NCBI GenBank assembly: GCA_035473115.1
Contig: DATION010000007.1
Span: 41,734-105,733 of the forward strand
Origin: Candidatus Udaeobacter sp.
GTDB lineage: Bacteria; Patescibacteriota; Patescibacteriia; Magasanikbacterales; GWA2-37-8
Length of the DNA: 64,000 nucleotides
Direction: 5' to 3'
The position numbers and the translations under genes were made by a program. Below the pieces are notes generated by a model. The model searched no databases, was not told the DNA's origin, and worked only from the letters and a program-made list of their open reading frames with translations. Of the stretch, positions 10,342 through 60,517 are shown piece by piece. Each line of letters opens with the position of its first letter. Within the stretch, counting starts at the first letter, position 1.

Positions 10342-13300
10342 ATGAAGAAATCTGTTCAATATAATCCAAAAAAAATAGAAAAAAAGTGGCAAAAATATTG
10401 GGAAACCAACAAGACTTTTGAAGTAACTGAAGATAAAACAAAAGATAAGTTTTATTCGCTAATTGAGTTCCCTTACCCAAGCGGCGAAGGCTTGCACGTC
10501 GGTCATCCGCGGCCGTTTACCGCTATGGATGTAGTTTCCCGCAAAAAAAGGATGGAAGGCAAAAATGTTTTGTTTCCAATCGGTTTTGATTCTTTTGGTC
10601 TGCCCACCGAAAATTACGCTATCAAAACCGGACAGCCTCCGGCAAAAGTTACCAAGAAAAATATTGCCAACTTTACCCGTCAGCTAAAAATGCTCGGTTA
10701 TAGTTTTGATTGGTCGCGCGTGGTTGATACTTCTGATCCAAAATATTATAAATGGACCCAGTGGCTGTTTTTGCAATTTTTTAAACATGGCTTGGCTTAC
10801 AAAAAAAATCAACCGATAAATTGGTGTCCAAAAGATAAAATCGGTCTGGCCAACGAAGAAGTGGTAAATGGCTGCTGCGAACGCTGCGGTACGGCTGTGG
10901 AAAAAAGAAATAAAGAGCAATGGATGCTGGCAATCACCAAGTATGCCGATAAACTTTTAGATGGTTTAAATGATGTAGATTACATTGATCGCGCCCGAGT
11001 GCAGCAGGAAAATTGGATCGGCAAAAGCGAAGGAGCGGAAATTGTTTTTCCACTGCGCATGATCCCGGGCCAGTCAGATGACAAACATTCGGTAAAAGTA
11101 TTTACTACCCGGCCGGATACAATTTTTGGCGCAACTTTTATTGCCATTTCTCCGGAGCTGGCCAAAAAATGGCTAGAAGTTGGCTGGCAAACAAATGATA
11201 AAGTAAAAAAATATATTGAAGAAACCATATTGCTGCGCGCTGCCGTAACCGACAGAGAAGAAAAAGCTAAAACTGGAATTGATACGGGTATTAAAGCTGT
11301 AAATCCGGTTAATAACCAAGAGGTTCCGGTTTGGATTACCAATTATGTTTTGGGTGATTTTGGCACGGGCGCAATTATGGGCGTGCCGGCGCATGATGAG
11401 CGTGATGGTGATTTTGCCAAAAAATTTGATTTGCCAATTACGGAAGTAATTCAATTAAAAGAAAACAAAACTAAGCATTTGATTTTTGATTTTGATGGAG
11501 TAATTGGCGACACTTGGGAGGCTGGGATTGAAACCAGAATAAAAATGGGAGATGTAAAAAACAGAGAAGAGGCGATTGAAGCTAATAATTTATATTTTAA
11601 TAGAAAACCGGTTCATACCAAGAATCATAATTTAACCGAAGAAGAAATGAAGGGTCTTCACTTATGGATGCAGAGGTATGGTGAAATTATGGCCAAAACC
11701 ACCTTTCCTTTGTTTGACGCTTTTATTAGCGAAATAAAAAAGATTCCCAATACAAAAATTGCTGTTATTTCTGCTGGTTCCGGACTTTATATGAGAGAGC
11801 GCAGTGCTAACAGTGGACTAAATCCTACTCATGTTCTTTCTTTTGAAGACCATCACTCCAAAGAAGAAAAAATTGAACAGGTCTGCAAAGACTGGGGAGT
11901 AAACATAAAAGATATATATTATTTTACCGATTCCAAAGCTGATGTTTACGAATTGGAAGGCTGTATGGATCAAAAAAAATTAATCGGCTGTGCTTGGGGT
12001 TATTGCGGCTATGATGCCTTACGTGAATTGTTGCCGGAAAATCAAGTTTTAAAGGAAGCCAAAGATATAAGCAAACTTTTTGCTCAGGAAAAATTGGTGG
12101 AAAAAGAAGTTATGGTTAATTCTGATTTCTTAAATGGTTTATCTGTTACCGAAGCCAAAGAAAAAGTTATTTCTTGGCTGAAAGAAAAAAGTTTTGGTAA
12201 GGGCCAAACCCAATACAAACTGCGCGATTGGGTATTTTCTCGTCAGCGTTATTGGGGTGAACCGATTCCATTGGTATTTTGCGAAAATTGTAAAAATAAA
12301 AAACAAAAAGTTCTAATGATCCATGGTTTTGAATCATCGGGCGATAATATTTGGTTTCCGTGGATGAAGAGTGAATTAGAAAAAAATGGCTACGAAGTTT
12401 TTGCGCCGACTGTCAGGAATCCAAATCATGGCAGTGTGAAAGATTGGGTTGCTGACTTGCTTCCTTATATGGAACAGCTTGACGAAAACGATGTTATCAT
12501 CGGACATAGTTTGGGCAGTAAAGCTGCTTTGCACTTGTTAGAAAAAACTGGTAAAAAAATTGGGCATTTATATTTGGTAGCTTCGGCTATCGGTACTATC
12601 CAGAATAGAGATTGGGATGAGCTGCGAGCTAAATGGCCAAAATCTGATATTGATTCTTTGCAAGCTTTTTGGCATGCGCCGGTTGATTATAAGAAAATTT
12701 CCAAATTGGTTAGAAGTATTAATTTAATCCGATCTAGCGACGATAAGAATATTCCTGCTTCTACTCACACAGATTTGCCGCCAGGCTGGCTGGTGCAAAC
12801 CTGGAATGGTTTTGGCCATTTCATGCACTTGGAAATACCGGAATTATTGCGCGAAATTTTAACTAGTAAAAATACCGGCTGGATTCCTTTGCCTGAAAGT
12901 GAATTGCCGCTTAAATTGCCAAAAGTAGAAAAGTATCAGCCGACCGATAATGGTGAATCGCCTTTGGCTGCCATGGAAAAGTGGGTTAATACCAAATGTC
13001 CGCAATGCGGTGGTTCGGCCAAACGAGAAACTGATACAATGCCAAATTGGGCCGGATCAAGCTGGTATTCTTTGCGTTACGCCGATCCGCACAACGACCA
13101 AGAATTTGCTTCTCAAGAAAAATTAAATTACTGGGCTCCGGTAGATTGGTACAATGGTGGAATGGAACATGTGGTTTTACATCTTTTGTATTCTCGTTTT
13201 TGGAATATATTTTTGCATGATATCGGACTAGTGCCGCATTCCGAACCGTATGCCAAACGCACCGCCCATGGAATGATCCTGGCCAAAGGCGGAGAAAAAA

Positions 13301-13962
13301 TGTCTAAATCCAAAGGCAATGTTATCAATCCGGACGATATGGTTGAGCAGTTTGGCGCGGATGCACTTCGGACTTATATTATGTTTATGGGTCCGTTTGA
13401 TCAGGCCGTTGAGTGGGATATCAATGGTTTGATTGGTGTAAAACGGTTTTTGGATAAGGTTTGGAATTTGCAAAGTAAGATCGCCAAAGAAAACGAAAAA
13501 AGTTCAACTGTCAGTTTGATTGCCAAGGCGACCAAAAAAGTAACTGATTGTATTGATATGATGAAATTCAATACAGCTGTGTCAGCTTTAATGGAGCTTA
13601 GCAATGAACTTTATAAGGAAGAAAAGATTGATCTGTATGCTTATCAAAATTTTATCAAACTTCTATCTCCATTTGCGCCTCATTTGGCTCAAGAGCTTTG
13701 GGAAAAATTTGGTGATAAAAATGAATTGGTGTTTTCTTCTTGGCCTAAATATCATGAGGAAGATCTTAAAGAAGAGACTCTAACTCTGGCAGTACAAATA
13801 AATGGCAAACTACGTGATACTATTTTGGTAAGCGCAGAAATTTCCGAAGACGAAGCTAAAAAAATAGCTCTGGCCAGTGAAAAAGTCCAAAAATGGCTGG
13901 AAGGCAAAGAGCCAAAAAAAGTAATTTATGTAAAAGGAAAGTTAGTTAGCATCGTTGTTTAG
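10342..13962 (+). CDS. leuS: Leucyl-tRNA synthetase carrying two inserted domains: a HAD-like hydrolase and a YdeN/RBBP9-type alpha/beta serine hydrolase
   Basis: HIGH (HVGHPRP) and KMSKS motifs, the CP1 editing motif VPAHDERD and the return to the catalytic core (RLRDW..RQRYWGEPIP). A HAD fold (FDFDGVIGDT motif I, VISAGS, FTDSKAD) sits between ITEVIQ and NSDFLNGL. A GHSLG serine hydrolase sits between the FCENC and KCPQCGG zinc-knuckle halves. Confidence 0.85.
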   Translation: MKKSVQYNPKKIEKKWQKYWETNKTFEVTEDKTKDKFYSLIEFPYPSGEGLHVGHPRPFTAMDVVSRKKRMEGKNVLFPIGFDSFGLPTENYAIKTGQPPAKVTKKNIANFTRQLKMLGYSFDWSRVVDTSDPKYYKWTQWLFLQFFKHGLAYKKNQPINWCPKDKIGLANEEVVNGCCERCGTAVEKRNKEQWMLAITKYADKLLDGLNDVDYIDRARVQQENWIGKSEGAEIVFPLRMIPGQSDDKHSVKVFTTRPDTIFGATFIAISPELAKKWLEVGWQTNDKVKKYIEETILLRAAVTDREEKAKTGIDTGIKAVNPVNNQEVPVWITNYVLGDFGTGAIMGVPAHDERDGDFAKKFDLPITEVIQLKENKTKHLIFDFDGVIGDTWEAGIETRIKMGDVKNREEAIEANNLYFNRKPVHTKNHNLTEEEMKGLHLWMQRYGEIMAKTTFPLFDAFISEIKKIPNTKIAVISAGSGLYMRERSANSGLNPTHVLSFEDHHSKEEKIEQVCKDWGVNIKDIYYFTDSKADVYELEGCMDQKKLIGCAWGYCGYDALRELLPENQVLKEAKDISKLFAQEKLVEKEVMVNSDFLNGLSVTEAKEKVISWLKEKSFGKGQTQYKLRDWVFSRQRYWGEPIPLVFCENCKNKKQKVLMIHGFESSGDNIWFPWMKSELEKNGYEVFAPTVRNPNHGSVKDWVADLLPYMEQLDENDVIIGHSLGSKAALHLLEKTGKKIGHLYLVASAIGTIQNRDWDELRAKWPKSDIDSLQAFWHAPVDYKKISKLVRSINLIRSSDDKNIPASTHTDLPPGWLVQTWNGFGHFMHLEIPELLREILTSKNTGWIPLPESELPLKLPKVEKYQPTDNGESPLAAMEKWVNTKCPQCGGSAKRETDTMPNWAGSSWYSLRYADPHNDQEFASQEKLNYWAPVDWYNGGMEHVVLHLLYSRFWNIFLHDIGLVPHSEPYAKRTAHGMILAKGGEKMSKSKGNVINPDDMVEQFGADALRTYIMFMGPFDQAVEWDINGLIGVKRFLDKVWNLQSKIAKENEKSSTVSLIAKATKKVTDCIDMMKFNTAVSALMELSNELYKEEKIDLYAYQNFIKLLSPFAPHLAQELWEKFGDKNELVFSSWPKYHEEDLKEETLTLAVQINGKLRDTILVSAEISEDEAKKIALASEKVQKWLEGKEPKKVIYVKGKLVSIVV

Positions 13963-13967
13963 GTCTT

Positions 13968-15497
13968 ATGAAGGAGGAGCTGCAGCGCATAATTAACTCA
14001 AAAAGCAAAACGTTTCTCGCGTTTTGTTTTTGTTTTATCCTTGGTGCGTCTCTGTTTTCTTTTTTTAATAATAAAGCCTGGTTATTTTATGTGTATATCA
14101 GTTTGTTTCTAATTTTATTTTTTGCCATAATTTTTTGGCAGGATAAATATAAACGATTTTTTATTTTGTGTTTATTAGTTTTTATTTTTGGAGGTTTAAG
14201 ATTTTTAATCAGTATTCCTGCTTATAATTCATCAAGAATAGAATATTACAATGGCAATAAAATAAATTTGCAAGGTTGGGTTTCGGCCGAACCAAGTATT
14301 GGTTTAAGTGATGCCGGTTATATTATTAAAGTACTTTGCCAAGGCAGTCCATGCAATAAAGTAAACGGTAAAATAATTATCAAAACCAGACTTTATCCTC
14401 AATACAATTATGGCGATGAATTAAAAATTAGCTGTCTGTTGCAGCAGCCGGAAAATTTTACTGATAGTAATTTTAACTACCAAAAATATTTAGCCAAACA
14501 AGGCGTCTGGTCTATTTGCTTTAATCCAAAAGTTATAGCCACTGGCAACAACAAAGGAAATTTTTTATTCAAAACAATGTTTTTGCTAAAAGCAAAAATT
14601 CAAACCCAGATGGCTCGTCTTTGGCCAGAGCCGGCCAATAGTTTGATGGCTGGAGTTTTGTATGGCAGCAAAAGCGGTCTGCCGCAAAGTTTAATTGATA
14701 ATTTTACTCGCACCGGAGTTACTCATATTATTGCGGTGTCTGGCTATAATGTCAGTATCATTGTGGCCATGCTTAATATTTGTTTGATTTATTTTGGTTT
14801 GTCGCGGCGGCAATCATTTTGGTTTTTAAACTTTTTAATTTTAGCTTTTGTGTTTTTTAGCGGTGCCACGGCTTCGGTGGTGCGAGCGGGGATAATGGCC
14901 GCTATAGTTTTATTTGCTCAGTACGCAGGCAGATTATCGGCAGTCGGCAGGGTCTTGGTGTATACCGCCGTAATCATGCTGCTATTTAATCCCTATGTTT
15001 TAGTCTGGGACGCTGGTTTTCAGCTTTCATTTTTATCTACGTTCGGATTGGTATATCTGTCGCCAGTTTTACAAAATTTTGCGACAAATAAATTTAAAAC
15101 TCCAAGCTGGTTATTGTCAATCATAGAAGTTTTAGTTACTACTATCTCGGCTATAATTGCCACTCTGCCACTAATTCTTTTTCAGTTTGGCAGATTGTCA
15201 CTAGTAGCGCCGCTAGTTAATGTTTTAGTTTTATGGCTGGTGCCGTGGTTGATGCTGCTTGGTTTTATTTCCTTAATTTTAAGCTGGCTAGTTTTTCCTT
15301 TGGGGCAACTAGCCGCTTGGGTAGCTGGCTTGGGTTTAAATTATGTTATAATTATTGTCGGTTGGTTTGGCAATAAAAATTGGAGCGCAGTTAGTGTTCG
15401 GATCCCTTTATGGTTCATGTTGACTGTATATCTAGTATTAATATTTTTTCTAATCAAAAATTTATATGGCCAAAAAAGCAAAAGTTCTGTCGTCTGA
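13968..15497 (+). CDS. comEC: ComEC/Rec2 competence protein, N-terminal part (DUF4131 plus competence channel domain)
   Basis: THIIAVSGYNVSII, SVVRAGIMA and DAGFQLSF motifs of the ComEC competence domain; polytopic. Confidence 0.8.
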   Translation: MKEELQRIINSKSKTFLAFCFCFILGASLFSFFNNKAWLFYVYISLFLILFFAIIFWQDKYKRFFILCLLVFIFGGLRFLISIPAYNSSRIEYYNGNKINLQGWVSAEPSIGLSDAGYIIKVLCQGSPCNKVNGKIIIKTRLYPQYNYGDELKISCLLQQPENFTDSNFNYQKYLAKQGVWSICFNPKVIATGNNKGNFLFKTMFLLKAKIQTQMARLWPEPANSLMAGVLYGSKSGLPQSLIDNFTRTGVTHIIAVSGYNVSIIVAMLNICLIYFGLSRRQSFWFLNFLILAFVFFSGATASVVRAGIMAAIVLFAQYAGRLSAVGRVLVYTAVIMLLFNPYVLVWDAGFQLSFLSTFGLVYLSPVLQNFATNKFKTPSWLLSIIEVLVTTISAIIATLPLILFQFGRLSLVAPLVNVLVLWLVPWLMLLGFISLILSWLVFPLGQLAAWVAGLGLNYVIIIVGWFGNKNWSAVSVRIPLWFMLTVYLVLIFFLIKNLYGQKSKSSVV

Positions 15498-16071
15498 AGA
15501 AGGCTATAATTTAGCCGCTGATGTATATGATGAAAATGAAAATTATTTAAATAGCTTTGAACAAGGAGAGTTTATTCCTTTGCTTGGCGCTTTGGCCGGT
15601 AAAAAAGTTTTGGATGTCGGAGCCGGTACAGGCCGCCTATCTTTGTCTTTGGCAAGCAGAGGCGCGCAGGTTACCGCCCTGGATGTTTCACCGAAAATGT
15701 TGGAATTAGTAAAAAGAAAAAATGGCAAGATTGAAACAGTTGTTGGTGATGCGGAAAGTCTGCCTTTTGAAAACGAAACTTTTGATATTGTCACAGCCGC
15801 GTTTTTGATTGTGCATCTAAAAAATCCAACTAGGTTTTTTGATGAGGCGTATCGAGTTTTAAAGGACGGGGGAATTTTGGCTGTCACTAACATTAATCAG
15901 AAAGATCCGCCGCAAGTAAAAACAAAATCAGGCAAAATAATTATAGAATCATTTTATCACCGCCCGGAAAAAATAATAGAAATATTAGAGTCATTGGCTT
16001 TTAGTGTGGAAGAAGTTTTTGTAAAAGAAAAGGATCTTTGGATAAATCAGATTTTAGTGGCCAAGAAGTAG
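15466..16071 (+). CDS. Class I SAM-dependent methyltransferase
   Basis: Motif I VLDVGAGTGRLS; overlaps the comEC 3' end by 32 nt. Confidence 0.7.
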   Translation: MAKKAKVLSSEEGYNLAADVYDENENYLNSFEQGEFIPLLGALAGKKVLDVGAGTGRLSLSLASRGAQVTALDVSPKMLELVKRKNGKIETVVGDAESLPFENETFDIVTAAFLIVHLKNPTRFFDEAYRVLKDGGILAVTNINQKDPPQVKTKSGKIIIESFYHRPEKIIEILESLAFSVEEVFVKEKDLWINQILVAKK

Positions 16072-16098
16072 AAGCAAAAAGGTCTCATTTTAATCTCA

Positions 16099-16959
16099 AT
16101 GCTCAAAAACCGAAAAATTATTTTTATCTCCATCATAATCCTGGCTCTATTATCAGGCTGTATTTTTTATTTTTATTATTCCCAGCGCCATCCGCATAAA
16201 TTTCAGGTTACTTTTTTTGATATTGGCCAAGGTGATTCGGCTTTAATTCAATTTGGCAATGGTCAAAAAATGCTGGTAGATTGCGGGCCAGATAAAAAAA
16301 TCCTGGCCAAGTTGGGTCAGGCGCTGCCTTTTTATGACCGCACCATAGATTATGTTTTAGCTACTCATCCAGACTTAGATCATTATGGTGGCTGTGTGGA
16401 TGTTTTAAAAAAATATAAAGTCAAAGAAATTGTTATTAATGGCCGCAAAAAAGAGAATGATCCGTATTGGCGAGCATGGGACAAGGCGGTAAAAGACGAG
16501 CCGGGAGGAATTGTAAAAATTATGGATAGCCCGGAAGAATGGGTGATTGCCAGTTCTACTTTAGATTTTTTGTCTCCAGATGCTTCTTTACCTTTAGACG
16601 TGGCGGCGGCAGATAGTAATAATTATTCTATAGTTTTTAAATTAAAAAATGACCGTACAAGTTTTTTATTCACCGGCGATATGGAAGAGCCTTTAGAAAA
16701 AGCGCTTGTACAAAAATATTGTTCAACGAATTCTACTTGTTCAAAATTGCAAGCAAATATACTTAAAGTTGGTCATCATGGCAGCGGCAGTTCTTCCGGT
16801 CAGGAGTTTTTAGATTTGGTCCAGCCGCAAATAGCAGTTGTTTCAGTGGGTAAAAACAATCATTATGGCCATCCATCTCTGCGGGTATTAAAAAAATTAG
16901 AAAGAGCTGGAGCGGATATTTTGCGAACAGATAAGAGTGGAGATATTATTGAAAACTGA
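16099..16959 (+). CDS. ComEC C-terminal metallo-beta-lactamase domain encoded as a separate ORF
   Basis: N-terminal TM helix, HPDLDHYGG (HxHxDH) and KVGHHGS MBL motifs typical of the ComEC nuclease domain. Confidence 0.75.
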   Translation: MLKNRKIIFISIIILALLSGCIFYFYYSQRHPHKFQVTFFDIGQGDSALIQFGNGQKMLVDCGPDKKILAKLGQALPFYDRTIDYVLATHPDLDHYGGCVDVLKKYKVKEIVINGRKKENDPYWRAWDKAVKDEPGGIVKIMDSPEEWVIASSTLDFLSPDASLPLDVAAADSNNYSIVFKLKNDRTSFLFTGDMEEPLEKALVQKYCSTNSTCSKLQANILKVGHHGSGSSSGQEFLDLVQPQIAVVSVGKNNHYGHPSLRVLKKLERAGADILRTDKSGDIIEN

Positions 16960-16972
16960 TTAATTTGGCCTG

Positions 16973-17045
16973 GTTTGACAGGGGTGCTTTGGTATGGTAT
17001 AGTATTCTCATAAAAGAGCTTCCTTATAGGAATGCTCTTTTTTGT
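16973..17045 (+). promoter_or_regulatory. Promoter-like TTGACA-17-TATAGT followed immediately by a hairpin plus T-run, upstream of nusA
   Basis: ttgaca ggggtgctttggtatgg tatagt, then aagagcttcc-ttata-ggaatgctct followed by tttttt. Confidence 0.3.
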
Positions 17046-17092
17046 TAGCAATTTTTGTGTTATCATATTATTATTAATTTTTAGACTAATAT

Positions 17093-18304
17093 ATGTCCGA
17101 AATTACAAAAGCGATCCAATTTCTCTGTGATGAAAAAAATCTTCCTTACGAATCAGTAATGGAAGCGATAGAGTATGCTTTAGCAGCTGCTTACCGCAAA
17201 GATTTTGGCAATAAACAGCAAAATATTAAAACCAAATTTGACCCGGAAACCGGCGATATGAAAGCTTGGGATGTTAAGACTGTGGTTGAAGATATTGCTG
17301 AAGCCGAACTGGAAGCGGCTCAGGAAGAGACAACCAAACGCCGCGAACAGGCCAAAACCGAAGGTCGGGAATTAACTGAAGAAGATACTGCTGATCTGCC
17401 TCATTTTAATCCAAAAACCGAATTAATGCTCAGTGCAGCTAAAGAAATAAATAAAAAAGTTAAGGTTGGAGAAGTAATGGAAATTCCTTTGGAAATTCCA
17501 AGTGAATTTGGCCGTATGGCTGCGCAAACTGCCAAACAGGTTATTATCCAAAAAATTCGTGAAGCTGAAAGAGGGATTGTCTTTAATGATTTCAAAGGCC
17601 AAGAAGGACAATTAATGACCGGCACGATTCAACGAGCTGAAGCTCGCAAAGTATTGGTAGATTTTGGTAAAGTTACCGGTGTTTTGTTGGCCGATCAACA
17701 AATTAGCCGCGATCATTATCGTCCAGGTGCTCGCATGAAGTTTTTGTTACTGGCAGTACAGATGTCTCCGCGCGGTCCGGAAATAATTTTGTCACGCAGC
17801 GATGTTGGTATGGTGCGAGAAATTTTTAAACAAGAAATTCCCGAAATCAGCGATGGCTTAATTGAAATAAAAGGCATTGCCCGTGAAGCCGGTTTCCGCT
17901 CCAAAGTAGCGGTAGCCACTAGCGACGATTCCATTGACCCAATTGGTTCCTGTATTGGTCAGCGCGGCGGCAGAATAAATACCATCATTGAAGAATTAGG
18001 CGGCGAAAAAATAGATGTAATCAAATATAGCGATAATGCCAAAGAATATATTTCTCACGGTTTATCTCCGGCTAAAGTTTTGAGTGTTGAGTTAGACGAA
18101 GCCAATAAGACTGCTCAAGTTAGTGTTGCTCCGGATCAATTTTCTTTGGCTATCGGCCGCAACGGGCAAAATGTCCGCTTGGCCGCTCAACTTACCGGTT
18201 GGAAAATAAATGTCGTAGAAGAAGGTGGCGGTCAAAAAGTTTCCAGCGAAGAAATAAAGCCAGAAGTTGAAGTCGAAGCCGAAGCCGAAGCTGCTCAAGA
18301 ATAA
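17093..18304 (+). CDS. nusA: Transcription termination/antitermination factor NusA
   Basis: S1 domain plus two KH domains (IGSCIGQRGGRI, LAIGRNGQNVRLA); acidic C-terminus. Confidence 0.9.
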   Translation: MSEITKAIQFLCDEKNLPYESVMEAIEYALAAAYRKDFGNKQQNIKTKFDPETGDMKAWDVKTVVEDIAEAELEAAQEETTKRREQAKTEGRELTEEDTADLPHFNPKTELMLSAAKEINKKVKVGEVMEIPLEIPSEFGRMAAQTAKQVIIQKIREAERGIVFNDFKGQEGQLMTGTIQRAEARKVLVDFGKVTGVLLADQQISRDHYRPGARMKFLLLAVQMSPRGPEIILSRSDVGMVREIFKQEIPEISDGLIEIKGIAREAGFRSKVAVATSDDSIDPIGSCIGQRGGRINTIIEELGGEKIDVIKYSDNAKEYISHGLSPAKVLSVELDEANKTAQVSVAPDQFSLAIGRNGQNVRLAAQLTGWKINVVEEGGGQKVSSEEIKPEVEVEAEAEAAQE

Positions 18305-18314
18305 AATATTTTTT

Positions 18315-19058
18315 ATGTTCAAAACTATTTTGTATCAGCCGATATTTAATCTGTTTGTTTTTTTGTATAACATTCTTCCCGGACACGATGTGGGCGCGGT
18401 TATTTTGGTTATTACAATTTTGGTGCGTTTAGCGCTCTATCCGCTTACCGGATCTTCCATTAAATCTCAGCGCGCTTTGCAGGAGTTGCAGCCAAAAATG
18501 GAAGCTGTCAAAAAACAGTTTGCTGATGACAAACAAAAACAGACCCAAGCGATAATGGAATTGTATAAAACAAATAAAGTAAATCCGATCACTTCTTGTT
18601 TGCCGATGTTAATTCAATTACCAATTCTAATTGCTCTATATTCTGTTTTGCGCGATGGCTTGGCTTCAAAAAACTTAGCCAGCTCTTTGTATCCGTTTAT
18701 CAGCAATCCCGGCACTATCAACCAGATTTCTTTGCATATCTTTAATATGGCTCAGCCAAATTATATTTTGGCTGTTTTGGCCGGCGCTGCCCAGTATTTG
18801 CAGGCAAAAACTTTGAGCCGAAAAAATCCGCCAGCTAATGCCGGTGAAGGATCTAAAGACGAAGCCATGATGACTATGATGAACAAGCAGATGCTGTATT
18901 TTATGCCAATTATGACTATTATTATTGGTTTGCGTCTGCCGGCGGGTCTTACATTATATTGGTTCTTCGGTACTTTGCTTATGGCTTTACAGCAGATGGT
19001 TCTCTTCAAAAAACCAATTGCTAGTGGTAAAATCATAGAAGGAGAAATAGTTAAATAA
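18315..19058 (+). CDS. yidC: Membrane protein insertase YidC/Oxa1 (short Gram-positive type)
   Basis: CLPMLIQLPILIALY and YWFFGTLL motifs. The ATG at 18315 is preferred over the track start at 18267, which overlaps nusA. Confidence 0.8.
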   Translation: MFKTILYQPIFNLFVFLYNILPGHDVGAVILVITILVRLALYPLTGSSIKSQRALQELQPKMEAVKKQFADDKQKQTQAIMELYKTNKVNPITSCLPMLIQLPILIALYSVLRDGLASKNLASSLYPFISNPGTINQISLHIFNMAQPNYILAVLAGAAQYLQAKTLSRKNPPANAGEGSKDEAMMTMMNKQMLYFMPIMTIIIGLRLPAGLTLYWFFGTLLMALQQMVLFKKPIASGKIIEGEIVK

Positions 19059-56087: not shown

Positions 56088-56260
56088 ACTTGCAGTTGCT
56101 AATATTTTTAAATTTATATTGCTAACTTAAAATTATTATAAGATAAAATTGTTATTTTGTACAGTTAGTTAAAAGTCTTTATAAAAATTTTAAGCCCGTC
56201 AACCAGTGTTTGGTTGCGGGCTTGATGGCCGGCTAAAGCTCCTTATATTTCTGGGTGTGG

Positions 56261-56760
56261 TTAGAGTTTTTGTCGCAGTGCTTGGAGTATTTTCTCTCCC
56301 TTTGCGACCGTAAACTCGGCTTGGGCACACAGCCTGCTGCCAAACATATTACAGCTAAGTGTGCCAAGTCTGGCGGCAAGTCTGGGCTTCAGCCATAGCG
56401 CGAATCCTCGCGGGGCTTTATCCGTCTTTTGTCCACCCCTACCTTTGCCTTTTTCTTCGATCTCTTCGAGAGATCGGATCAGCCGCAGAATGCTGGCGCG
56501 CATCTTTTCTGCGTCTAAAACTGATAGACCGTTGATGTGTGCAGTCCGAGCTGCTGAGCTGGGGTTTTCGTCCCAAAACCCAATTGTGCAAAGCTCAGCC
56601 CAGATCATTTCTCCCAGGGCTGCCCGCAAAGCTCCACGCTCGGCGCGGTCTTTAAACCAGTCAGCCTGTTTGGTTTTTTACCACTTCGGGTCTTTTTTGC
56701 CTTTGGTTTCACGAACGCTCCTTTAGCCGGTTTAATGGGAAACTACCATAATTTAATTAA
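56261..56760 (-). pseudogene. GC-rich frameshifted gene fragment of unknown family
   Basis: Two overlapping minus-strand frames (VKPKAKKTRSGKKPNRL... and ...ADWFKDRAERGALRAALGEMIW...) meet at a poly-A tract; ~55% GC. Confidence 0.4.
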
Positions 56761-56773
56761 TAAGTCAACCCTA

Positions 56774-56802
56774 TTGACACTAGAGTTAACTCTGTGATAA
56801 AT
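56774..56802 (+). promoter_or_regulatory. Putative promoter TTGACA-17-ATAAAT for the 56878 gene
   Basis: ttgaca at 56774, 17-bp spacer, ataaat at 56797; SD AAGGAGAG precedes the ATG. Confidence 0.4.
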
Positions 56803-56877
56803 TATTCAGCTATCTTGGGATTCTCCAAGAAGCGCGGCAGGTTGTAGCAACACGATAAGTAACAAGGAGAGTTCCAG

Positions 56878-57465
56878 ATGCGTATCATCGTTTCCATCGT
56901 CATTATTGTCGCATGCTTCGGCTTCGCCTCTGCTGTCCAGGCCGACGTGAAGTCCAATGGCCAGCTCCTCGTTGTCCATGGCGAGCACTTTGGTGATGAT
57001 AATTTCGGTGGATATCTCCACCTTGCAGGTATGGCTTCGACAGGCGGAAACTTGTCTATGCCAATCTATATTGGCGGGGAATACCGCGCCAAAGGAGTAA
57101 ACTTCAAGCTGCTCACCGGGCTTTCTCTATCAGGGAATGGTGGAACATCTGTCATTGCCAGTACCTGGTTTTACGATGAGCTGAGCTCAGATATCAGTTT
57201 GTTTGTCCAAGGAGACGTTTATTTGCCAACCAAACCTGCTGGCAATCACGTTTCACTTTACACTTATGCTAGTTTGTCCAAAGTGAGAGCAGGTTCTGAT
57301 TCAGGCTTTGGTCTGATTTACGAGAATTTTTTCTTTGGACGGGATTGGGTGAAGGCTGCTGTCGGACCAACAGTGATTCTCAGCAACAAGAATTCTCTCT
57401 GGGTTGCCTACGACTTCCAGCCTGATGGATACAACCTGCTTGTCAGGTGGGTAGTCAAGCTCTGA
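56878..57465 (+). CDS. Secreted beta-rich protein (outer-membrane-protein-like) in a GC-rich patch
   Basis: Signal peptide ending AVQA; alternating hydrophobic pattern; ~50% GC. Confidence 0.45.
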   Translation: MRIIVSIVIIVACFGFASAVQADVKSNGQLLVVHGEHFGDDNFGGYLHLAGMASTGGNLSMPIYIGGEYRAKGVNFKLLTGLSLSGNGGTSVIASTWFYDELSSDISLFVQGDVYLPTKPAGNHVSLYTYASLSKVRAGSDSGFGLIYENFFFGRDWVKAAVGPTVILSNKNSLWVAYDFQPDGYNLLVRWVVKL

Positions 57466-57540
57466 GACAACAACAGCTGCTCCAATTCGGCTCAAGCCGA
57501 GCGGGGCGCTGCGGCCAAGGTCGGCAGATTCGCTGTTCGG

Positions 57541-57608
57541 CCAGACCTCTACCATTATCTATGGTACTGATGAGTCCATATAAAATATTTGAAAGGACGA
57601 AAGGTTTT
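57541..57608 (+). ncRNA. Candidate type III hammerhead ribozyme
   Basis: Stem III agaccU/Aggttt (6 bp, one G-U pair); cleavage triplet CUC with C17 at 57549; stem I taccat-tatct-atggta; core CUGAUGA; stem II gtcc-(17 nt)-ggac; GAA; A15.1-U16.1 pair. All invariant core positions are present. Confidence 0.5.
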
Positions 57609-57611
57609 AAA

Positions 57612-57650
57612 AAATAACCCCGCCTCTCACGAGAGGCGGGGTTATTTTTT
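57612..57650. terminator. Bidirectional rho-independent terminator
   Basis: aaaaaataaccccgcctctc-acga-gagaggcggggttattttttt, perfect 13-bp stem. Confidence 0.8.
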
Positions 57651-57670
57651 TGTATGAATTTTTTATAGAA

Positions 57671-60517
57671 TTAAAGCGTTTGGAATTGTTGGCCAGAAAC
57701 ATTTCCTGCCGCATCAAAAGATAAAATGAAATAAGAATAGAAAGTTGCCGGAGATAATCCGGTATCAGAATAATTATTTGTGGCTGATGTTCCTACTTGA
57801 ACACCGTTGCGGAATATTTTATATCCAATTACGCCAACATTATCTGTCGAAGCTGTCCAAGTTAAATTAATTTGCGAAGAGGATATAGCAGTACCAGATA
57901 AGTTTGTTGGCATTGATGGTGCAACAGTATCTGGAGGAACTACAACTGCCGGCGCAGGAATAGAACCAGTTCCTGGTGAAGCAAGTTGCAAAGCATTATC
58001 ATCAAGAACTAGAACCCAATCACCGCTGGCTGGAGGATTAAATACGCGGCTGCCAGTAGTTGGGAATACACCGATTAAACTTTCCGCGCCAGTGGTTGGA
58101 TTGTACCACCATGCATTTGCGTTAGCACCGGAAACTTTAGTCATGTTGATTGTCAAATTTCTTTGGCTAGGAGTATAGACTATCACTGTGCCTCCATTTG
58201 CAGTTCTGGCTGCGGCTGCAAAGGTGTTATTACTAATATTTCCGAATCCGGCAGTCAGTGTTAAATGGTTACTATCTGGCAATAAATCTTGCCAAGGACG
58301 AGAACCAAAAAGTTGATGAGCAAATTTGGCGCCAACTGATCCCTGACTGTTTAAAGCTGTTTTCCAGCCGCCTTGAAATTGACCGTCACCAAAACTCCAA
58401 CCTGGATTGCCATCGCTTGGGTTGTTGCCGAAGAACCAGATTGGATCATTACCAAACAGTGATCCGTCTGCTCCCATTAAGGTTGGCCAATATTCTTGGC
58501 CGTGAAGACAGGCTAGAGAGGTAGTATGTTCATTCTCATACCAGGCTTCAACCATAAAGGTTGGGAAAGGTCCCGAGTGGTTATAATCACTAGCAATTCG
58601 ACTTGGCAAAGTGTTGCAGGTTGTATAAGTGGAATTAAAATTAATCCAAGAATCATTTGCTGGATAAGCATCCATTTGTGAGTTATCTCTGGTGCCATGA
58701 ATAGTTATTAGTTGGTTGGAACCGGAATCTTTAATGCCTTGAACCATAGCTTCAACTTCAGGCAGAGCCAAATCTGGTTCGCGATCACCGCCGATAACCC
58801 AAATTAGATTGTTATAATTTTTATAACGATTGCCTAAATATTGTCCGTAAGCGCGCATTTTCGTAGTACCGTTAGCAATTACTTCGTTATACCAGCCTTC
58901 ATCGGTATTTGGAAAACCAAGATAAGCCGGTGTTAACAGCACCAGCATATTTTTTTGCGCAGCCATTGATAATAAATTGTCTACGTGAGCAAAGTAGGCT
59001 TCGTTGGGAGTAGAGAAGTCGCCCGGAGAAGTAAATGGAGCCACTCCAAAAGCATTAAGCGGAGCTTGCGGAACAAATTTATGTTCAATGATTGAAGCTA
59101 GCACGGTATTAAATCCTTTTTGTTGGCGATCAGACAAGAATAAGTCCGCATCTTGATCATTTAAGCCAGCTACCAGCGACCAGGCTGAATCTCCTTTTAT
59201 TAAGAAAGGTTGTCCGTTGTTATCTTCCAGTCGGCGGCGGTCGGCGCTTACATGAAGCGGGAATGGGAAAGTAGAAGAAGCGCTTACTACGTTAATAGTT
59301 GCTATGCTTGTTTTTGCAGGGTTGGCATTACTGGAAGCTACTAAGTGGTAAATACTAGGCACAGAAGGAGCAGTGTATAAAGAAGAGGAACTGCCAGTTG
59401 GAGTTACCAAACCTCCAACAGAGCCTTCTTGAATTGACCAAGAGCAAGAAGTGTCTGTTGAGCCCGTAACAGTACAAGTAAATGTCTGAGTGGAATTAGT
59501 AATTAAAGTTTTACTGCTCGGGCTAACAGTAATTGTTATTGGCAGTGCTTGGGTAGTCGCATTTGCGGAAATTGACAGAGCTGAAGTATTCCCAGCTGCA
59601 TCAAAAGCAGCCACAGTATATGAATAGTCTGTTGAAGGAGTTAAACCAGTGTTAGAGAAAGAGGTAGCTGCAGTAGTAGCAATTTGTACACCGTCACGGA
59701 ATATTTTATATCCGGTTACGCCAACGTTATCTGTAGCAGCTGTCCAAGCAAGATTTATTTGAGAAGCAGAGACTGCGTTGGCGGATAGGTTGGTTGGAAC
59801 TGTTGGAGCTTGAGTGTCAGAAGTGATTGCTGCTGGTCGTAGAGCCACCATTTGCATTGTCCAGCCTCTAGTAGCTGATCCTGTAGCCGCAAATACTCCG
59901 GCTGTTCCAGCAACTTTATCTTCAGAAAGATTGCTGTTCATGGTAGAGCGAGCGGTAAAACCTGAACCAATAGTACAAGCATCGTCTCCAATACAGAAAC
60001 CATAAATAATATCACCAGCAGAAGTTGTAGTAACATTACCGCTGGTTACTGTTCCTGTATTTCCGGTTCTGCCAGCGCTGGCGTCGATAGGATTTACATT
60101 ATCTATACCTCTATAAGCGGTAATATATGCTTCAATAAAACTTGAGCCAGCTGTTAGATTAACTGTTACTGTATCTGTTCCGGCAGTAGTGTTTTTAGCA
60201 TAATACAGACGAGTGTGAGCTCCGCCCGGAGTGGTTAGTTCAGTGCCGATCTGAGTAAAAGTATTGCCGCGTGAATCGGTAACCGAAGCTACATTGGCAT
60301 TTTGGCTTTTATCATAATCAAAACCAACCAGAATAATATCACCCGCAGCCACACTAGAAGTAAATGTGGTCGCCAGAGAGCTGGCTCCGCTGGCTGCAGC
60401 GGCAGCTTTTTGCTGTACAAAGGAAGCGGCGGCGCTGGATTCATTGCTAGTAAGCAATAAAAATACGGCGATAAAAATCGCTACTGCGGACAGGCTTATT
60501 TTTTTGATATTATACAT
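57671..60517 (-). CDS. Secreted multidomain glycoside hydrolase (DUF4038/GH140-like catalytic region) with fibronectin type III domains
   Basis: Signal peptide; two FN3 modules (…TNLSANAVSASQINLAWTA…GYKIFRDG…); central FLIKGDSAW...FNTV...WVIGGD region resembling DUF4038. Confidence 0.55.
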   Translation of the reverse strand: MYNIKKISLSAVAIFIAVFLLLTSNESSAAASFVQQKAAAAASGASSLATTFTSSVAAGDIILVGFDYDKSQNANVASVTDSRGNTFTQIGTELTTPGGAHTRLYYAKNTTAGTDTVTVNLTAGSSFIEAYITAYRGIDNVNPIDASAGRTGNTGTVTSGNVTTTSAGDIIYGFCIGDDACTIGSGFTARSTMNSNLSEDKVAGTAGVFAATGSATRGWTMQMVALRPAAITSDTQAPTVPTNLSANAVSASQINLAWTAATDNVGVTGYKIFRDGVQIATTAATSFSNTGLTPSTDYSYTVAAFDAAGNTSALSISANATTQALPITITVSPSSKTLITNSTQTFTCTVTGSTDTSCSWSIQEGSVGGLVTPTGSSSSLYTAPSVPSIYHLVASSNANPAKTSIATINVVSASSTFPFPLHVSADRRRLEDNNGQPFLIKGDSAWSLVAGLNDQDADLFLSDRQQKGFNTVLASIIEHKFVPQAPLNAFGVAPFTSPGDFSTPNEAYFAHVDNLLSMAAQKNMLVLLTPAYLGFPNTDEGWYNEVIANGTTKMRAYGQYLGNRYKNYNNLIWVIGGDREPDLALPEVEAMVQGIKDSGSNQLITIHGTRDNSQMDAYPANDSWINFNSTYTTCNTLPSRIASDYNHSGPFPTFMVEAWYENEHTTSLACLHGQEYWPTLMGADGSLFGNDPIWFFGNNPSDGNPGWSFGDGQFQGGWKTALNSQGSVGAKFAHQLFGSRPWQDLLPDSNHLTLTAGFGNISNNTFAAAARTANGGTVIVYTPSQRNLTINMTKVSGANANAWWYNPTTGAESLIGVFPTTGSRVFNPPASGDWVLVLDDNALQLASPGTGSIPAPAVVVPPDTVAPSMPTNLSGTAISSSQINLTWTASTDNVGVIGYKIFRNGVQVGTSATNNYSDTGLSPATFYSYFILSFDAAGNVSGQQFQTL

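What the first reader, a model, noticed from the sequence alone, without database searches (positions are those of the whole stretch)
57541..57608. Sequence matching a complete type III hammerhead ribozyme upstream of a bidirectional terminator
The plus strand reads: stem III strand agaccU, C17 (cleavage after 57549), stem I hairpin taccat-tatct-atggta, CUGAUGA, stem II gtcc-[17-nt AU loop]-ggac, GAA, A15.1 and the stem III partner ggttt. Every invariant core nucleotide and the A15.1-U16.1 pair is present with correct connectivity. The motif sits in the 3' region of a GC-rich, possibly horizontally acquired gene, 4 nt before a strong terminator hairpin.
Basis: seen in the sequence. Interest (0 to 1): 0.7.

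Follow-up and report, generated by a model that had tools for sequence, protein, structure and literature searches.

The report
Hammerhead ribozyme in a gene's tail
The sequence is a complete, evolutionarily conserved self-cutting RNA (a type III hammerhead ribozyme) sitting between a gene and its terminator in a tiny-genome (CPR/Patescibacteria) bacterium; it is a new example of a known ribozyme class, but it belongs to a widespread subfamily that standard annotation misses.

Summary
Observation confirmed and interpretation supported. Window 57543-57607 (+) has every invariant hammerhead core nucleotide, C17 (cleavage after 57549), the A15.1-U16.1 and G10.1-C11.1 pairs, and three helices in type III topology. 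It is the only such site in the window. In 300 shuffles, 0 sites matched it at equal stringency.

Rfam RF00008 scores 35.1 bits, below the 48.5 gathering score. That reflects the cut-off: none of the hammerheads in the 18 related loci scanned reaches it either.

Pattern scans retrieved about 85 other unique hammerheads of the same design, mostly from Patescibacteria genomes and from metagenomes. Stems I, II and III covary. U1.7 and the last loop-2 A, the known tertiary contact, are near-invariant. A covariance model built without the window sequence scores it 67.4 bits, mid-range for true members.

The ribozyme lies 77 nt past the stop codon of an orphan secreted-protein gene and 1 nt before a bidirectional terminator. 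It most likely cuts the transcript in cis, leaving an mRNA that ends in a GC-rich hairpin.

Family-wide, the upstream gene is unusually GC3-rich. This is unexplained.

Cleavage and biological role are untested. This is a new member of a known kind.

The parts
56774..56803 (+). Promoter-like site (TTGACA-18-TAAATT, with TG) that would drive the ORF plus ribozyme transcript.
   Evidence: Consensus scan, 10 of 12 matches. This is inferred, not shown.
56878..57465 (+). Upstream gene: a 195-aa orphan protein with an N-terminal signal-peptide-like segment. AAGGAG lies 8 nt before the ATG. The gene is GC3-rich (0.52) compared with host genes (about 0.33).
   Evidence: The only database hit is itself. 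There are no Pfam, PHROG or NCBIfam hits.
57466..57542 (+). GC-rich structured 3' UTR spacer. A stable hairpin spans 57474-57511. An alternative hairpin spans 57496-57541 and ends 1 nt before the ribozyme. After cleavage this spacer would be the 3' end of the mRNA.
   Evidence: Folds. A hairpin ending 0-4 nt before the hammerhead occurs in most of the 44 genome-set sites and in 26 of 42 metagenome loci.
57543..57607 (+). Type III hammerhead ribozyme.
- Stem III: 57543-48 / 57602-07.
- C17: 57549; predicted cleavage between 57549 and 57550.
- Stem I: 57550-55 / 57561-66.
- U1.7: 57556.
- Core CUGAUGA: 57567-73.
- Stem II: 57574-77 / 57595-98.
- Loop 2: 57578-94, with the conserved terminal A at 57594.
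- GAA: 57599-601.
57609..57650 (.). Bidirectional intrinsic terminator. It is a perfect 20-nt palindrome (AAAAAATAACCCCGCCTCTC / GAGAGGCGGGGTTATTTTTT) with A- and T-tracts. It is shared with the convergent gene.
   Evidence: (inverted repeat I1).
57671..60517 (-). Convergent neighbour: a 948-aa apiosidase-like glycoside hydrolase with fn3 domains. This is context, not part of the ribozyme unit.
56261..56629 (-). Divergent small ORF in the same GC-rich stretch (about 56230-57610). It may be frameshifted at an A6 run and matches no family. This is context.

Best explanation
Window 57543-57607 (+) encodes a genuine cis-acting type III hammerhead ribozyme. It belongs to a conserved subfamily that, in the sets retrieved here, is found mainly in Patescibacteria (CPR).

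Proposed mechanism:
1. The ribozyme is co-transcribed with the 195-aa gene 56878-57465, probably from the promoter-like site at 56774-56803.
2. It folds as soon as it is made, before the terminator is transcribed.
3. It cleaves after C57549 by internal transesterification.
4. The 5' product is an mRNA of about 740 nt. It ends in a GC-rich hairpin followed by ...AGACCUC with a 2',3'-cyclic phosphate.
5. The 3' product is a roughly 100-nt fragment with a 5'-OH that carries the ribozyme core and the terminator hairpin.
6. The short stem III (4-6 bp) should dissociate after cleavage, making the cut effectively irreversible.

Inferred role: a 3'-end processing or insulating element. It detaches the coding RNA from the shared bidirectional terminator and from any read-through into the convergent gene. 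In family members that sit between co-directional genes, it would cut a polycistronic RNA into separate units.

What is shown: motif completeness, conservation, covariation, and placement at the end of a transcription unit.

What is inferred: transcription, cleavage in vivo, and the processing/insulation role.

The confidence value applies to the claim that this is a genuine, conserved hammerhead that cleaves in cis. The specific processing/insulation role on its own I would put at about 0.4.
For: Motif and statistics:
- All core nucleotides and helices are present, and the MFE of the 68-mer is the hammerhead fold.
- It is the only descriptor hit in the window. Shuffles give 0.007 loose hits per window and none at 5/4/5 bp or above.
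- RF00008 scores 35.1 bits, E = 8e-4 against all families over the whole window, and is the top hit.

Family:
- In the GTDB scan, 43-44 of 48 loci that matched a pattern covering only the core, stem II and the 3' half of stem III are complete hammerheads. Each has an unimposed 5-7 bp stem I, a non-G residue at position 17 (C in all but three) and a matching 5' strand of stem III.
- In the metagenome scan, whose pattern left stem II free, 45 of 64 unique matches are complete hammerheads.

Covariation:
- Stem I is 97.6% paired, and 6 of its 7 pairs change on both sides.
- The fourth stem III pair occurs as AU, CG, UA, GC and GU.
- The covariation score is 0.49 against 0.11 in shuffles, exceeded in 0 of 500 shuffles.
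- Stem II occurs as GUCC/GGAC, GAUC/GAUC, GUUC/GAAC, GCCC/GGGC, GGGC/GCCC, GACC/GGUC and GUUU/AAAC.

Tertiary contact:
- U1.7 is invariant in the set where the pattern did not impose it.
- The A closing loop 2 occurs in 44 of 45 unimposed cases.
- This is the Hoogsteen U1.7-A(L2) contact seen in the Schistosoma and sTRSV crystal structures (PMC11875169). The window has both residues.

Membership:
- Model R1, built without the window sequence, scores it 67.4 bits. True members score 42.9-78.2 and chance pattern matches 26.8-32.8.

Context:
- A same-strand ORF ends tens of nt upstream in most loci. The median gap is 57 nt in the metagenome set.
- A terminator lies within 70 nt downstream in at least 16 of the 44 genome-set sites, the window among them.
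- Roughly half of the loci have a convergent ORF ending within about 170 nt.
- The site is conserved at an orthologous position, the end of the rnpA-yidD-X operon facing ychF, in four species. Stem I shows compensatory changes there.

Folding:
- The hammerhead fold is within 1.2 kcal/mol of the MFE, with probability 0.2-0.4 in contexts up to the 193-nt 3' UTR plus terminator (0.03 with 240 nt more upstream), without tertiary energy.
Against: - There is no experimental cleavage data and no transcript-end data.
- The Rfam score is below gathering.
- The thermodynamic z-score of the 68-mer is unremarkable, at -0.98.
- A competing hairpin (57560-64 / 57576-80) appears in the MFE of the longer context.
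- With 240 nt of upstream mRNA included, the equilibrium probability of the hammerhead fold falls to 0.03.
- The relatives were retrieved with patterns derived from the window sequence. This fixes about 20 nt, inflates the R1 score, and biases the apparent taxonomic range.
- The processing/insulation role is an inference from position only.
- A hairpin abutting the ribozyme is frequent, but its stability barely exceeds that of the GC-rich background: -11.9 vs -10.4 kcal/mol.
- It is not obvious why a gene that already has a terminator would need a ribozyme 1 nt before it.
Confidence: 0.72

Rival explanations
1. The motif is a chance match. It is an AU-rich sequence next to a terminator that happens to satisfy the hammerhead descriptor and has no ribozyme function.
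For: - The Rfam score is below the curated cut-off.
- The fold z-score is -0.98.
- The first-stage scan presumably examined many windows, so multiple testing applies.
Against: - No shuffle of 300 gave a match at equal stringency.
- L011, from a related Magasanikbacteria genome, carries a hammerhead that is 84% identical, with compensatory stem I changes and a near-identical loop 2.
- About 85 other hammerheads of the same design show covariation in all stems.
- The leave-one-out model scores the window sequence 67.4 bits, against at most 33 bits for chance pattern matches.
Confidence: 0.01
2. The sequence is a true hammerhead by descent but an inert passenger here. It was carried in with a horizontally acquired GC-rich gene, or belongs to a selfish or mobile unit, and does nothing for the host gene. 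It may be inactive in vivo because of misfolding.
For: - The upstream gene is an orphan with foreign-looking codon usage.
- The most similar hammerhead (L011) sits at a non-syntenic place behind an unrelated gene, although the two genomes share a 71%-identical NusA operon.
- Across 86 loci the 700-800 nt upstream are 7-10 GC points above the local mean.
- Tandem gene-hammerhead units occur in several contigs.
- The literature notes bacterial hammerheads flanking small, non-conserved ORFs (PMC6155905; PMC3088659).
Against: - The core and the tertiary-contact residues are all intact.
- The same module is kept at the end of a housekeeping operon (rnpA-yidD-X) across four species, with compensatory changes. 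This indicates purifying selection at a fixed host locus.
- No terminal repeats or target duplications flank the window's GC-rich stretch.
- There is no integrase, transposase or phage gene nearby.
- There are no matches in phage or plasmid collections, and the subfamily is nearly absent from 2.9 million viral contigs.
Confidence: 0.15
3. The functional product is the downstream fragment, not the mRNA. Cleavage would release a roughly 100-nt RNA with a 5'-OH (ribozyme core, variable AU-rich loop 2 and terminator hairpin) that acts as a small RNA. Where a gene follows the ribozyme, cleavage would instead free the GAAAGG of stem III to serve as a ribosome-binding site.
For: - Loop 2 is long, single-stranded and highly variable.
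- A terminator that would stabilise the 3' fragment follows in at least 16 of the 44 genome-set sites.
- In several loci an ATG follows the ribozyme by 4-15 nt.
Against: - Loop 2 is not conserved, so no common target is apparent.
- In the window nothing follows the ribozyme except the terminator, so the ribosome-binding-site idea cannot apply here.
- The perfect inverted copy of loop 2 at 57813-57824 would not pair with the convergent mRNA, because that mRNA carries the same sense. The match is AT-rich and likely chance.
Confidence: 0.1

Closest known systems
Hammerhead ribozyme type III (Rfam RF00008, clan CL00010), e.g. the sTRSV and viroid hammerheads
   Same: - Identical catalytic core (C3-A9, G12-A14).
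- A15.1-U16.1, C17 and G10.1-C11.1.
- Stems I and II closed by loops, stem III open.
- A 4-bp stem II whose loop ends in A, together with U1.7. This is the Hoogsteen tertiary pair seen in the sTRSV and Schistosoma structures.
   Different: - It is encoded in a bacterial chromosome rather than in a circular RNA replicon.
- It is a single copy of one polarity.
- Loop 2 is long (17 nt) and variable, and stem III is short.
- It scores 35.1 bits, below the family's 48.5-bit gathering score, as do the hammerheads in all 18 related loci scanned.
Bacterial and prophage hammerheads (de la Pena and Garcia-Robles 2010; Perreault et al. 2011, PMC3088659; Jimenez et al. 2011)
   Same: - Intergenic location.
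- They flank small, non-conserved ORFs.
- They sometimes occur in tandem, with one ribozyme per gene.
- Their proposed role is to process long transcripts, and their function is still open.
   Different: - This subfamily is not linked to integrases or prophages.
- It is nearly absent from IMG/VR.
- It is found mostly in Patescibacteria chromosomes, including at the end of a housekeeping operon.
- It shows a recurrent arrangement of GC3-rich gene, hairpin, hammerhead, then terminator or convergent gene.
- No paper in the searchable library links hammerheads to CPR/Patescibacteria.
Mammalian Clec2 3'-UTR hammerhead (Martick et al. 2008) and the glmS ribozyme's effect on mRNA decay (Collins et al. 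2007). Both are cited from my own knowledge.
   Same: - A self-cleaving ribozyme within an mRNA untranslated region whose cut changes the RNA's ends.
- The cut leaves a 2',3'-cyclic phosphate upstream and a 5'-OH downstream, and so alters the fate of the RNA.
   Different: - Clec2 is a discontinuous hammerhead in eukaryotes.
- glmS is a different, metabolite-dependent fold in a 5' UTR.
- Here the ribozyme appears constitutive, with no ligand-binding domain evident, and it sits just before a terminator.
Synthetic ribozyme insulators (RiboJ, derived from the sTRSV hammerhead). Cited from my own knowledge.
   Same: - A type III hammerhead used to sever a transcript so that neighbouring sequence no longer influences the coding unit.
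- A hairpin adjacent to the ribozyme.
   Different: - RiboJ is engineered and is placed in the 5' UTR.
- The element here is natural and lies in the 3' UTR.
- An insulating role here is only inferred.

Membership tests
Hammerhead ribozyme, type III (RF00008) | Conserved catalytic core: C3 U4 G5 A6 N7 G8 A9 and G12 A13 A14. | tested here: met
   CUGAUGA at 57567-73 and GAA at 57599-601. They align to the Rfam consensus without mismatch.
Hammerhead ribozyme, type III (RF00008) | Cleavage-site nucleotide H17 (not G), preceded by U16.1 paired to A15.1. | tested here: met
   C57549, with U57548 paired to A57602. In the family, C17 occurs in all but three genome-set sequences (two U, one A) and the U-A pair in 35 of 35 aligned sequences.
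Hammerhead ribozyme, type III (RF00008) | Three helices around the core, with stems I and II closed by loops and stem III open. Pairs adjacent to the core must be intact (N1.1-N2.1, G10.1-C11.1). | tested here: met
   The stems are 6, 4 and 6 bp. U57550-A57566 and G57574-C57598 are paired. The MFE equals this fold.
Hammerhead ribozyme, type III (RF00008) | Helices supported by covariation among homologues. | tested here: met
   - Stem I: 6 of 7 pairs change on both sides, and 97.6% of cells are paired.
- Stem III: the fourth pair covaries.
- Stem II: 7 pair combinations in the independent set.

Caveat: the homologues were retrieved with patterns that fixed part of the sequence.
Hammerhead ribozyme, type III (RF00008) | Stem I / stem II tertiary contact needed for fast cleavage at physiological Mg2+. 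| tested here: inconclusive
   The residues of the known U1.7 / terminal loop-2 A Hoogsteen pair are present (U57556, A57594). They are near-invariant in the family where the pattern did not impose them. The structural precedent is described in PMC11875169. Formation of the contact cannot be computed with these tools.
Hammerhead ribozyme, type III (RF00008) | Score at or above Rfam's gathering threshold (48.5 bits). | tested here: not met
   The score is 35.1 bits. None of the subfamily hammerheads in the 18 related loci scanned reaches it either. The cut-off therefore excludes this whole branch rather than singling out this sequence.
Hammerhead ribozyme, type III (RF00008) | Site-specific self-cleavage that yields 2',3'-cyclic phosphate and 5'-OH ends. 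| not testable with these tools
   This needs in vitro transcription or RNA end mapping.
Patescibacteria-type hammerhead subfamily defined here (model R1) | A 17-nt stem I hairpin with U1.7, a 4-bp proximal stem II preceded by A, a short stem III, and a position at the 3' end of a transcription unit behind a GC3-rich gene. | tested here: met
   - R1, built without the window sequence, scores it 67.4 bits, E = 3e-17.
- The stem I hairpin is 17 nt.
- The upstream ORF stop is 77 nt away, and a terminator follows.
- The upstream ORF has GC3 of 0.52, against about 0.33 for host genes.
Prophage-associated bacterial hammerheads (Perreault et al. 2011) | Proximity to integrase or phage genes, and multiple ribozymes flanking genes. 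| tested here: not met
   - No phage or integrase families were found among the neighbours.
- There is a single hammerhead in 64 kb.
- There is no match to the phage or plasmid collections.

The most novel reading that the evidence does not exclude
The hammerhead may not be a generic processing site. It may be the RNA hallmark of a previously undescribed way in which CPR bacteria handle a special class of genes.

Across 86 loci it marks the sharp 3' boundary of a 0.7-1 kb stretch of GC3-rich, mostly orphan coding sequence in otherwise AT-rich genomes. It recurs behind unrelated genes at non-syntenic places in related genomes, and it sometimes forms tandem gene-ribozyme units.

That pattern would fit two ideas. 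One is a ribozyme-delimited gene cassette, meaning a mobile or capture system for foreign genes. The other is a dedicated expression or insulation signal for acquired genes.
Probability: 0.15. Interest if true: 0.75.

Novelty: new member of a known kind. Interest (0 to 1): 0.5.

Why it matters
The biological role of bacterial hammerheads is still an open question (PMC6155905, PMC3088659). This site, and the roughly 85 relatives it led to, matter for four reasons.

- **Distribution.** A canonical, probably fast-cleaving hammerhead is widespread in the chromosomes of ultra-small Patescibacteria, outside prophages.
- **Annotation gap.** Rfam's gathering threshold misses it, so it is absent from standard annotation.
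- **Fixed placement.** It occupies a stereotyped position: gene, then GC-rich hairpin, then ribozyme, then a terminator or a convergent gene. One instance lies at the end of the rnpA-yidD operon in four species.
- **Composition signal.** The upstream gene is unusually GC3-rich.

The fixed placement and the composition signal together give concrete, testable hypotheses (3'-end processing, insulation, or a cassette marker) for a ribozyme class whose function in bacteria has resisted explanation.

Tried and rejected
- **Rfam at gathering threshold.** No hit anywhere in the window.
- **GC-rich stretch 56200-57660 against phages and plasmids.** blastn found nothing.
- **Homologues of the 195-aa ORF.** The search returned only the protein itself. 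An exact look-up of its contig found nothing on record.
- **Family scans of the stretch's ORFs.** Pfam, PHROG and NCBIfam gave nothing.
- **A shared gene family upstream of the ribozymes.** Rejected. The upstream proteins are unrelated apart from small syntenic groups. Most have no Pfam hit, and there is no phage or defence theme. Only about a third look secreted or membrane-bound.
- **The GC-rich upstream segment as a non-coding RNA.** Rejected. The ORFs show normal codon periodicity, with GC2 the lowest of the three positions.
- **Phage association.** The two viral-contig scans with stem II fixed as GUCC/GGAC gave 0 hits. The looser pattern gave 6 loci, of which only one or two are convincing family members.
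- **A narrow metagenome pattern built on the window's loop 2.** 0 hits.
- **Apparent four-copy contig JGI24729J20445_1000001.** The four loci are the same place stored four times.
- **Terminal inverted or direct repeats around the GC-rich stretch.** Only short matches at chance level.
- **Pairing of loop 2 with the convergent gene's mRNA.** Rejected, because the mRNA would carry the same sense.
- **Other ribozymes or hammerhead copies in the window.** None found by descriptor, by Rfam at E <= 0.05, or by model R1.
Full report
**1.

The plus strand at 57543-57607 reads as follows:
- AGACCU, the 5' strand of stem III
- C, which is C17 at 57549
- UACCAU-UAUCU-AUGGUA, stem I and its loop
- CUGAUGA, the core
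- GUCC-[17 nt]-GGAC, stem II and its loop
- GAA
- AGGUUU, which is A15.1 plus the 3' strand of stem III

The minimum-free-energy fold of the 68-mer is exactly this three-way junction, at -12.3 kcal/mol.

I wrote a hammerhead descriptor that requires CUGANGA, GAAA, U16.1, H17 and three helices. It finds this site and nothing else on either strand of the 64-kb window. In 300 dinucleotide-preserving shuffles, loose matches (stems of 4, 3 and 4 bp) occurred 0.007 times per window. None occurred at 5/4/5 bp or at the observed 6/4/6 bp.

Rfam finds nothing in the window at gathering thresholds. With E-value reporting, Hammerhead_3 (RF00008) aligns end to end at 35.1 bits. That gives E = 4.6e-6 for the local stretch and E = 8.3e-4 for the whole window against all 4227 families, where it is the top hit. 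The other sub-threshold hits there are terminator-hairpin look-alikes.

Two details need correcting. The motif lies 77 nt past the stop codon of ORF 56878-57465, so it is in the 3' UTR and not in the gene. The terminator's perfect 20-nt palindrome begins at 57609, 1 nt after stem III.

**2. It is a member of a conserved family.**

*Genome scan.* I scanned one genome per GTDB species with CTGATGAGTCC-N(8-30)-GGACGAAAGG. This pattern fixes only the core, stem II and the 3' half of stem III. It returned 48 loci, against roughly six expected by chance (my own estimate).
- In 43-44 of these loci the unconstrained upstream sequence supplies what a hammerhead needs. It has CCU to pair with AGG, a non-G residue at position 17 (C in all but three), and a 5-7 bp hairpin abutting CUGAUGA. 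That hairpin is 17 nt long in most.
- The remaining loci lack these features and behave as chance matches.

*Covariation.* On a 35-sequence alignment that includes the window, I counted pairs.
- Stem I is 97.6% paired, and 6 of its 7 pairs change on both sides.
- The fourth pair of stem III occurs as AU (12), CG (8), UA (8), GC (2) and GU (2).
- The covariation score is 0.49 against 0.11 in shuffles, exceeded in 0 of 500 shuffles.
- Sliding the partner columns collapses pairing from 88% to 27-45%.

*Metagenome scan.* A second, differently constrained scan used CCTC-N6-T-N10-CTGATGAG-N(12-40)-CGAAAGG, which leaves stem II free. It gave 78 loci and 64 unique sequences, of which 45 are complete hammerheads. 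Nineteen unique sequences were chance matches, against about 26 expected by my own estimate.
- Stem II covaries in this set: GUCC/GGAC 26, GAUC/GAUC 8, GUUC/GAAC 4, GCCC/GGGC 3, and GGGC/GCCC, GACC/GGUC and GUUU/AAAC once each.

*Conserved unpaired positions.* Two positions are conserved without being imposed by the search pattern.
- The seventh nucleotide after the cleavage site is U in 35 of 35 sequences of the genome-set alignment, the window included.
- The nucleotide closing loop 2 next to the 4-bp stem II is A in 44 of 45 metagenome sequences.
- These are the partners of the U1.7 / terminal loop-A Hoogsteen pair described for the Schistosoma and sTRSV crystal structures (PMC11875169).
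- The window has both residues (U57556 and A57594). Here U1.7 faces a U, so it is free to make the contact.

*Leave-one-out test.* A covariance model built from 34 relatives without the window sequence finds a single hit in the window, 57542-57608, at 67.4 bits and E = 3e-17. On the GTDB loci, true members score 42.9-78.2 bits, and the chance pattern matches score 26.8-32.8 bits. The window sequence is therefore a typical member.

*Caveat.* About 20 nt were fixed by the retrieval patterns. This inflates the model scores and biases which lineages were found.

*Rfam threshold.* None of the hammerheads in the 18 related loci scanned reaches Rfam's gathering score. The failed threshold is a property of the cut-off for this branch and is not evidence against this site.

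**3. Whose genome is this?**

The only database hit of the upstream ORF is the protein itself, labelled Candidatus Udaeobacter. However, the window's ComEC and NusA gene block is syntenic with L011, a Candidatus Magasanikbacteria MAG. NusA is 76% identical at the protein level, and the region is 71% identical at the nucleotide level. The gene content also fits a Patescibacteria genome: IF-2, GroEL, a LeuRS with inserted domains, ComEC, a VirB4/TraG-like ATPase and a 2564-aa protein, at 40% GC.

Of the 43-44 true GTDB members, at least 26 are labelled as Patescibacteria lineages. Two records labelled 'uncultured Gammaproteobacteria' (L023, L030) are syntenic with Magasanikbacteria loci, so such labels are unreliable.

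The subfamily is nearly absent from 2.9 million viral contigs. The two scans with stem II fixed as GUCC/GGAC gave 0 hits, and only one or two convincing members turned up with the looser pattern.

**4. Context and likely mechanism.**

*In the window.* The ribozyme follows a 195-aa orphan gene that has a signal-peptide-like N-terminus and a good ribosome-binding site. A promoter-like site lies at 56774-56803. The 77-nt spacer is GC-rich and folds into stable hairpins. A bidirectional terminator, shared with a convergent glycoside-hydrolase gene, follows immediately.

*Across the family.*
- A same-strand ORF ends tens of nt upstream in most loci. The median gap is 57 nt in the metagenome set.
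- A hairpin ends 0-4 nt before the ribozyme in most of the 44 genome-set sites and in 26 of 42 metagenome loci. Its stability barely exceeds the GC-rich background there, at -11.9 vs -10.4 kcal/mol.
- A terminator follows within 70 nt in at least 16 of the 44 genome-set sites, the window among them.
- About half of the loci face a convergent gene. Others are followed closely by a co-directional gene.
- In four Magasanikbacteria-type species the ribozyme sits at the same place, the end of an rnpA-yidD-X operon facing ychF. Stem I shows compensatory differences among these sites. This argues for selection at a host locus.

*Most likely mechanism.* The ribozyme is co-transcribed with the gene and folds before the terminator emerges. 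It then cuts after C57549. This leaves an mRNA that ends in a hairpin plus a 2',3'-cyclic phosphate, and a roughly 100-nt ribozyme-plus-terminator fragment with a 5'-OH.

*Folding.* Equilibrium folding does not contradict this. Forcing all 16 hammerhead pairs costs no more than 1.2 kcal/mol relative to the MFE. The probability of the full fold is 0.42 alone, 0.26 in the 3' UTR and 0.20 with the terminator, but it falls to 0.03 when 240 nt of upstream mRNA are added. None of these figures includes tertiary energy. A competing hairpin (57560-64 / 57576-80) needs sequence that is made after stem I has formed.

*Function.* The purpose is inferred from position only. The candidates are 3'-end definition, and insulation of the coding RNA from the shared terminator and from convergent read-through. 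Between co-directional genes it would dissect an operon transcript. The literature likewise treats the role of bacterial hammerheads as open.

**5. An unexplained regularity.**

I averaged GC content over 86 unique hammerhead loci.
- The 700-800 nt immediately upstream are 7-10 GC points above the local mean.
- The excess decays to baseline by about 1.2 kb upstream.
- GC drops sharply right after the ribozyme, and downstream coding sequence sits at baseline.

The upstream ORFs are truly coding. They show mean GC1 0.60, GC2 0.42 and GC3 0.63. Their codon usage differs from the host's. The window ORF has GC3 of 0.52, against 0.33-0.35 for IF-2, NusA, GroEL and LeuRS.

These proteins are unrelated to one another and mostly match no family.

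The closest hammerhead to the window's, in L011, is 84% identical. It sits at a non-syntenic position behind an unrelated methyltransferase gene.

Tandem gene-ribozyme units 1.3-1.5 kb apart occur in several contigs.

This pattern suggests that the module travels with, or is preferentially kept behind, compositionally foreign genes. Against a simple recent-transfer reading, the vertically conserved rnpA-yidD-X case is also GC3-rich. I found no terminal repeats or mobility genes in the window.

**6. Comparison with known systems, and verdict.**

The site meets every sequence-level criterion of a type III hammerhead. It fails only Rfam's numeric threshold, and activity cannot be tested here.

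It resembles the bacterial hammerheads of Perreault et al. and de la Pena et al. in flanking small, non-conserved ORFs. It differs from them in four ways: it has no prophage link, it occurs mainly in Patescibacteria, its position at the end of the transcription unit is stereotyped, and the upstream gene is GC3-rich.

No paper in the searchable library links hammerheads or self-cleaving ribozymes to CPR/Patescibacteria.

I rate it a new member of a known kind. Interest is moderate for the single site, and higher if the association with foreign-looking genes proves to be functional.

Noticed in passing
Window 56230-57610, and 86 hammerhead loci (L001-L126): The 700-800 nt upstream of these hammerheads are 7-10 GC points richer than the local mean, and GC drops sharply right after the ribozyme. 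The upstream ORFs have a mean GC3 of about 0.63, against about 0.33 for host genes in the window. This is unexplained.
   Followed up: partly
Window 13968-19058 compared with L011 2352-7995: The window's ComEC and NusA gene block is syntenic with a Candidatus Magasanikbacteria MAG, at 71% nucleotide identity. The source MAG's protein is labelled Candidatus Udaeobacter. This points to mislabelling or mis-binning. Some GTDB records labelled 'uncultured Gammaproteobacteria' (L023, L030) are likewise syntenic with Magasanikbacteria loci.
   Followed up: partly
Window 10342-13962: The leucyl-tRNA synthetase is 1206 aa long. It has extra Pfam matches inside the synthetase: HAD_2 at aa 380-535 and serine hydrolase / alpha-beta hydrolase at aa 657-818.
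   Followed up: no
Window 56261-56720 (-): The small ORF divergent from the ribozyme-linked gene appears to continue upstream in another reading frame across an A6 run near 56678. This could be a frameshift, a pseudogene or a sequencing error. No family matches it.
   Followed up: partly
L025 (5349-5401 and 6702-6756), L071, L104, L113, L062, L007/L083: Pairs of same-strand hammerheads lie 0.4-3 kb apart, each behind a small gene. L040, from the same contig as L025, carries a third copy. The arrangement resembles the clustered hammerheads described in prophages, but no phage genes were seen among the ORFs scanned in L025 and L040.
   Followed up: partly
L002, L008, L019, L029, L042, L044, L047 (just 3' of the hammerhead): An ATG that opens a long ORF follows the ribozyme by about 4-15 nt. 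The GAAAGG of stem III could therefore double as a Shine-Dalgarno sequence that is unmasked by cleavage.
   Followed up: no
L040 3972-4089 (+): A LOOT RNA (RF03000) scores 73.9 bits, above its gathering threshold. It lies about 300 nt from a hammerhead in a Saccharibacteria contig.
   Followed up: no
L020, L023, L030, L031: The hammerhead is conserved at the end of an rnpA-yidD-X operon facing ychF in four species. X is a 103-201-aa GC3-rich protein with no Pfam hit (homology by BLAST shown only among the L020, L030 and L031 copies). Two conserved hairpins precede the ribozyme.
   Followed up: partly
Window 57578-57589 and 57813-57824: The first 12 nt of loop 2 (ATATAAAATATT) have a perfect inverted copy inside the 3' end of the convergent glycoside-hydrolase gene. 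The gene's mRNA would carry the same sense as loop 2, so the two would not pair. The match is AT-rich and probably chance.
   Followed up: partly
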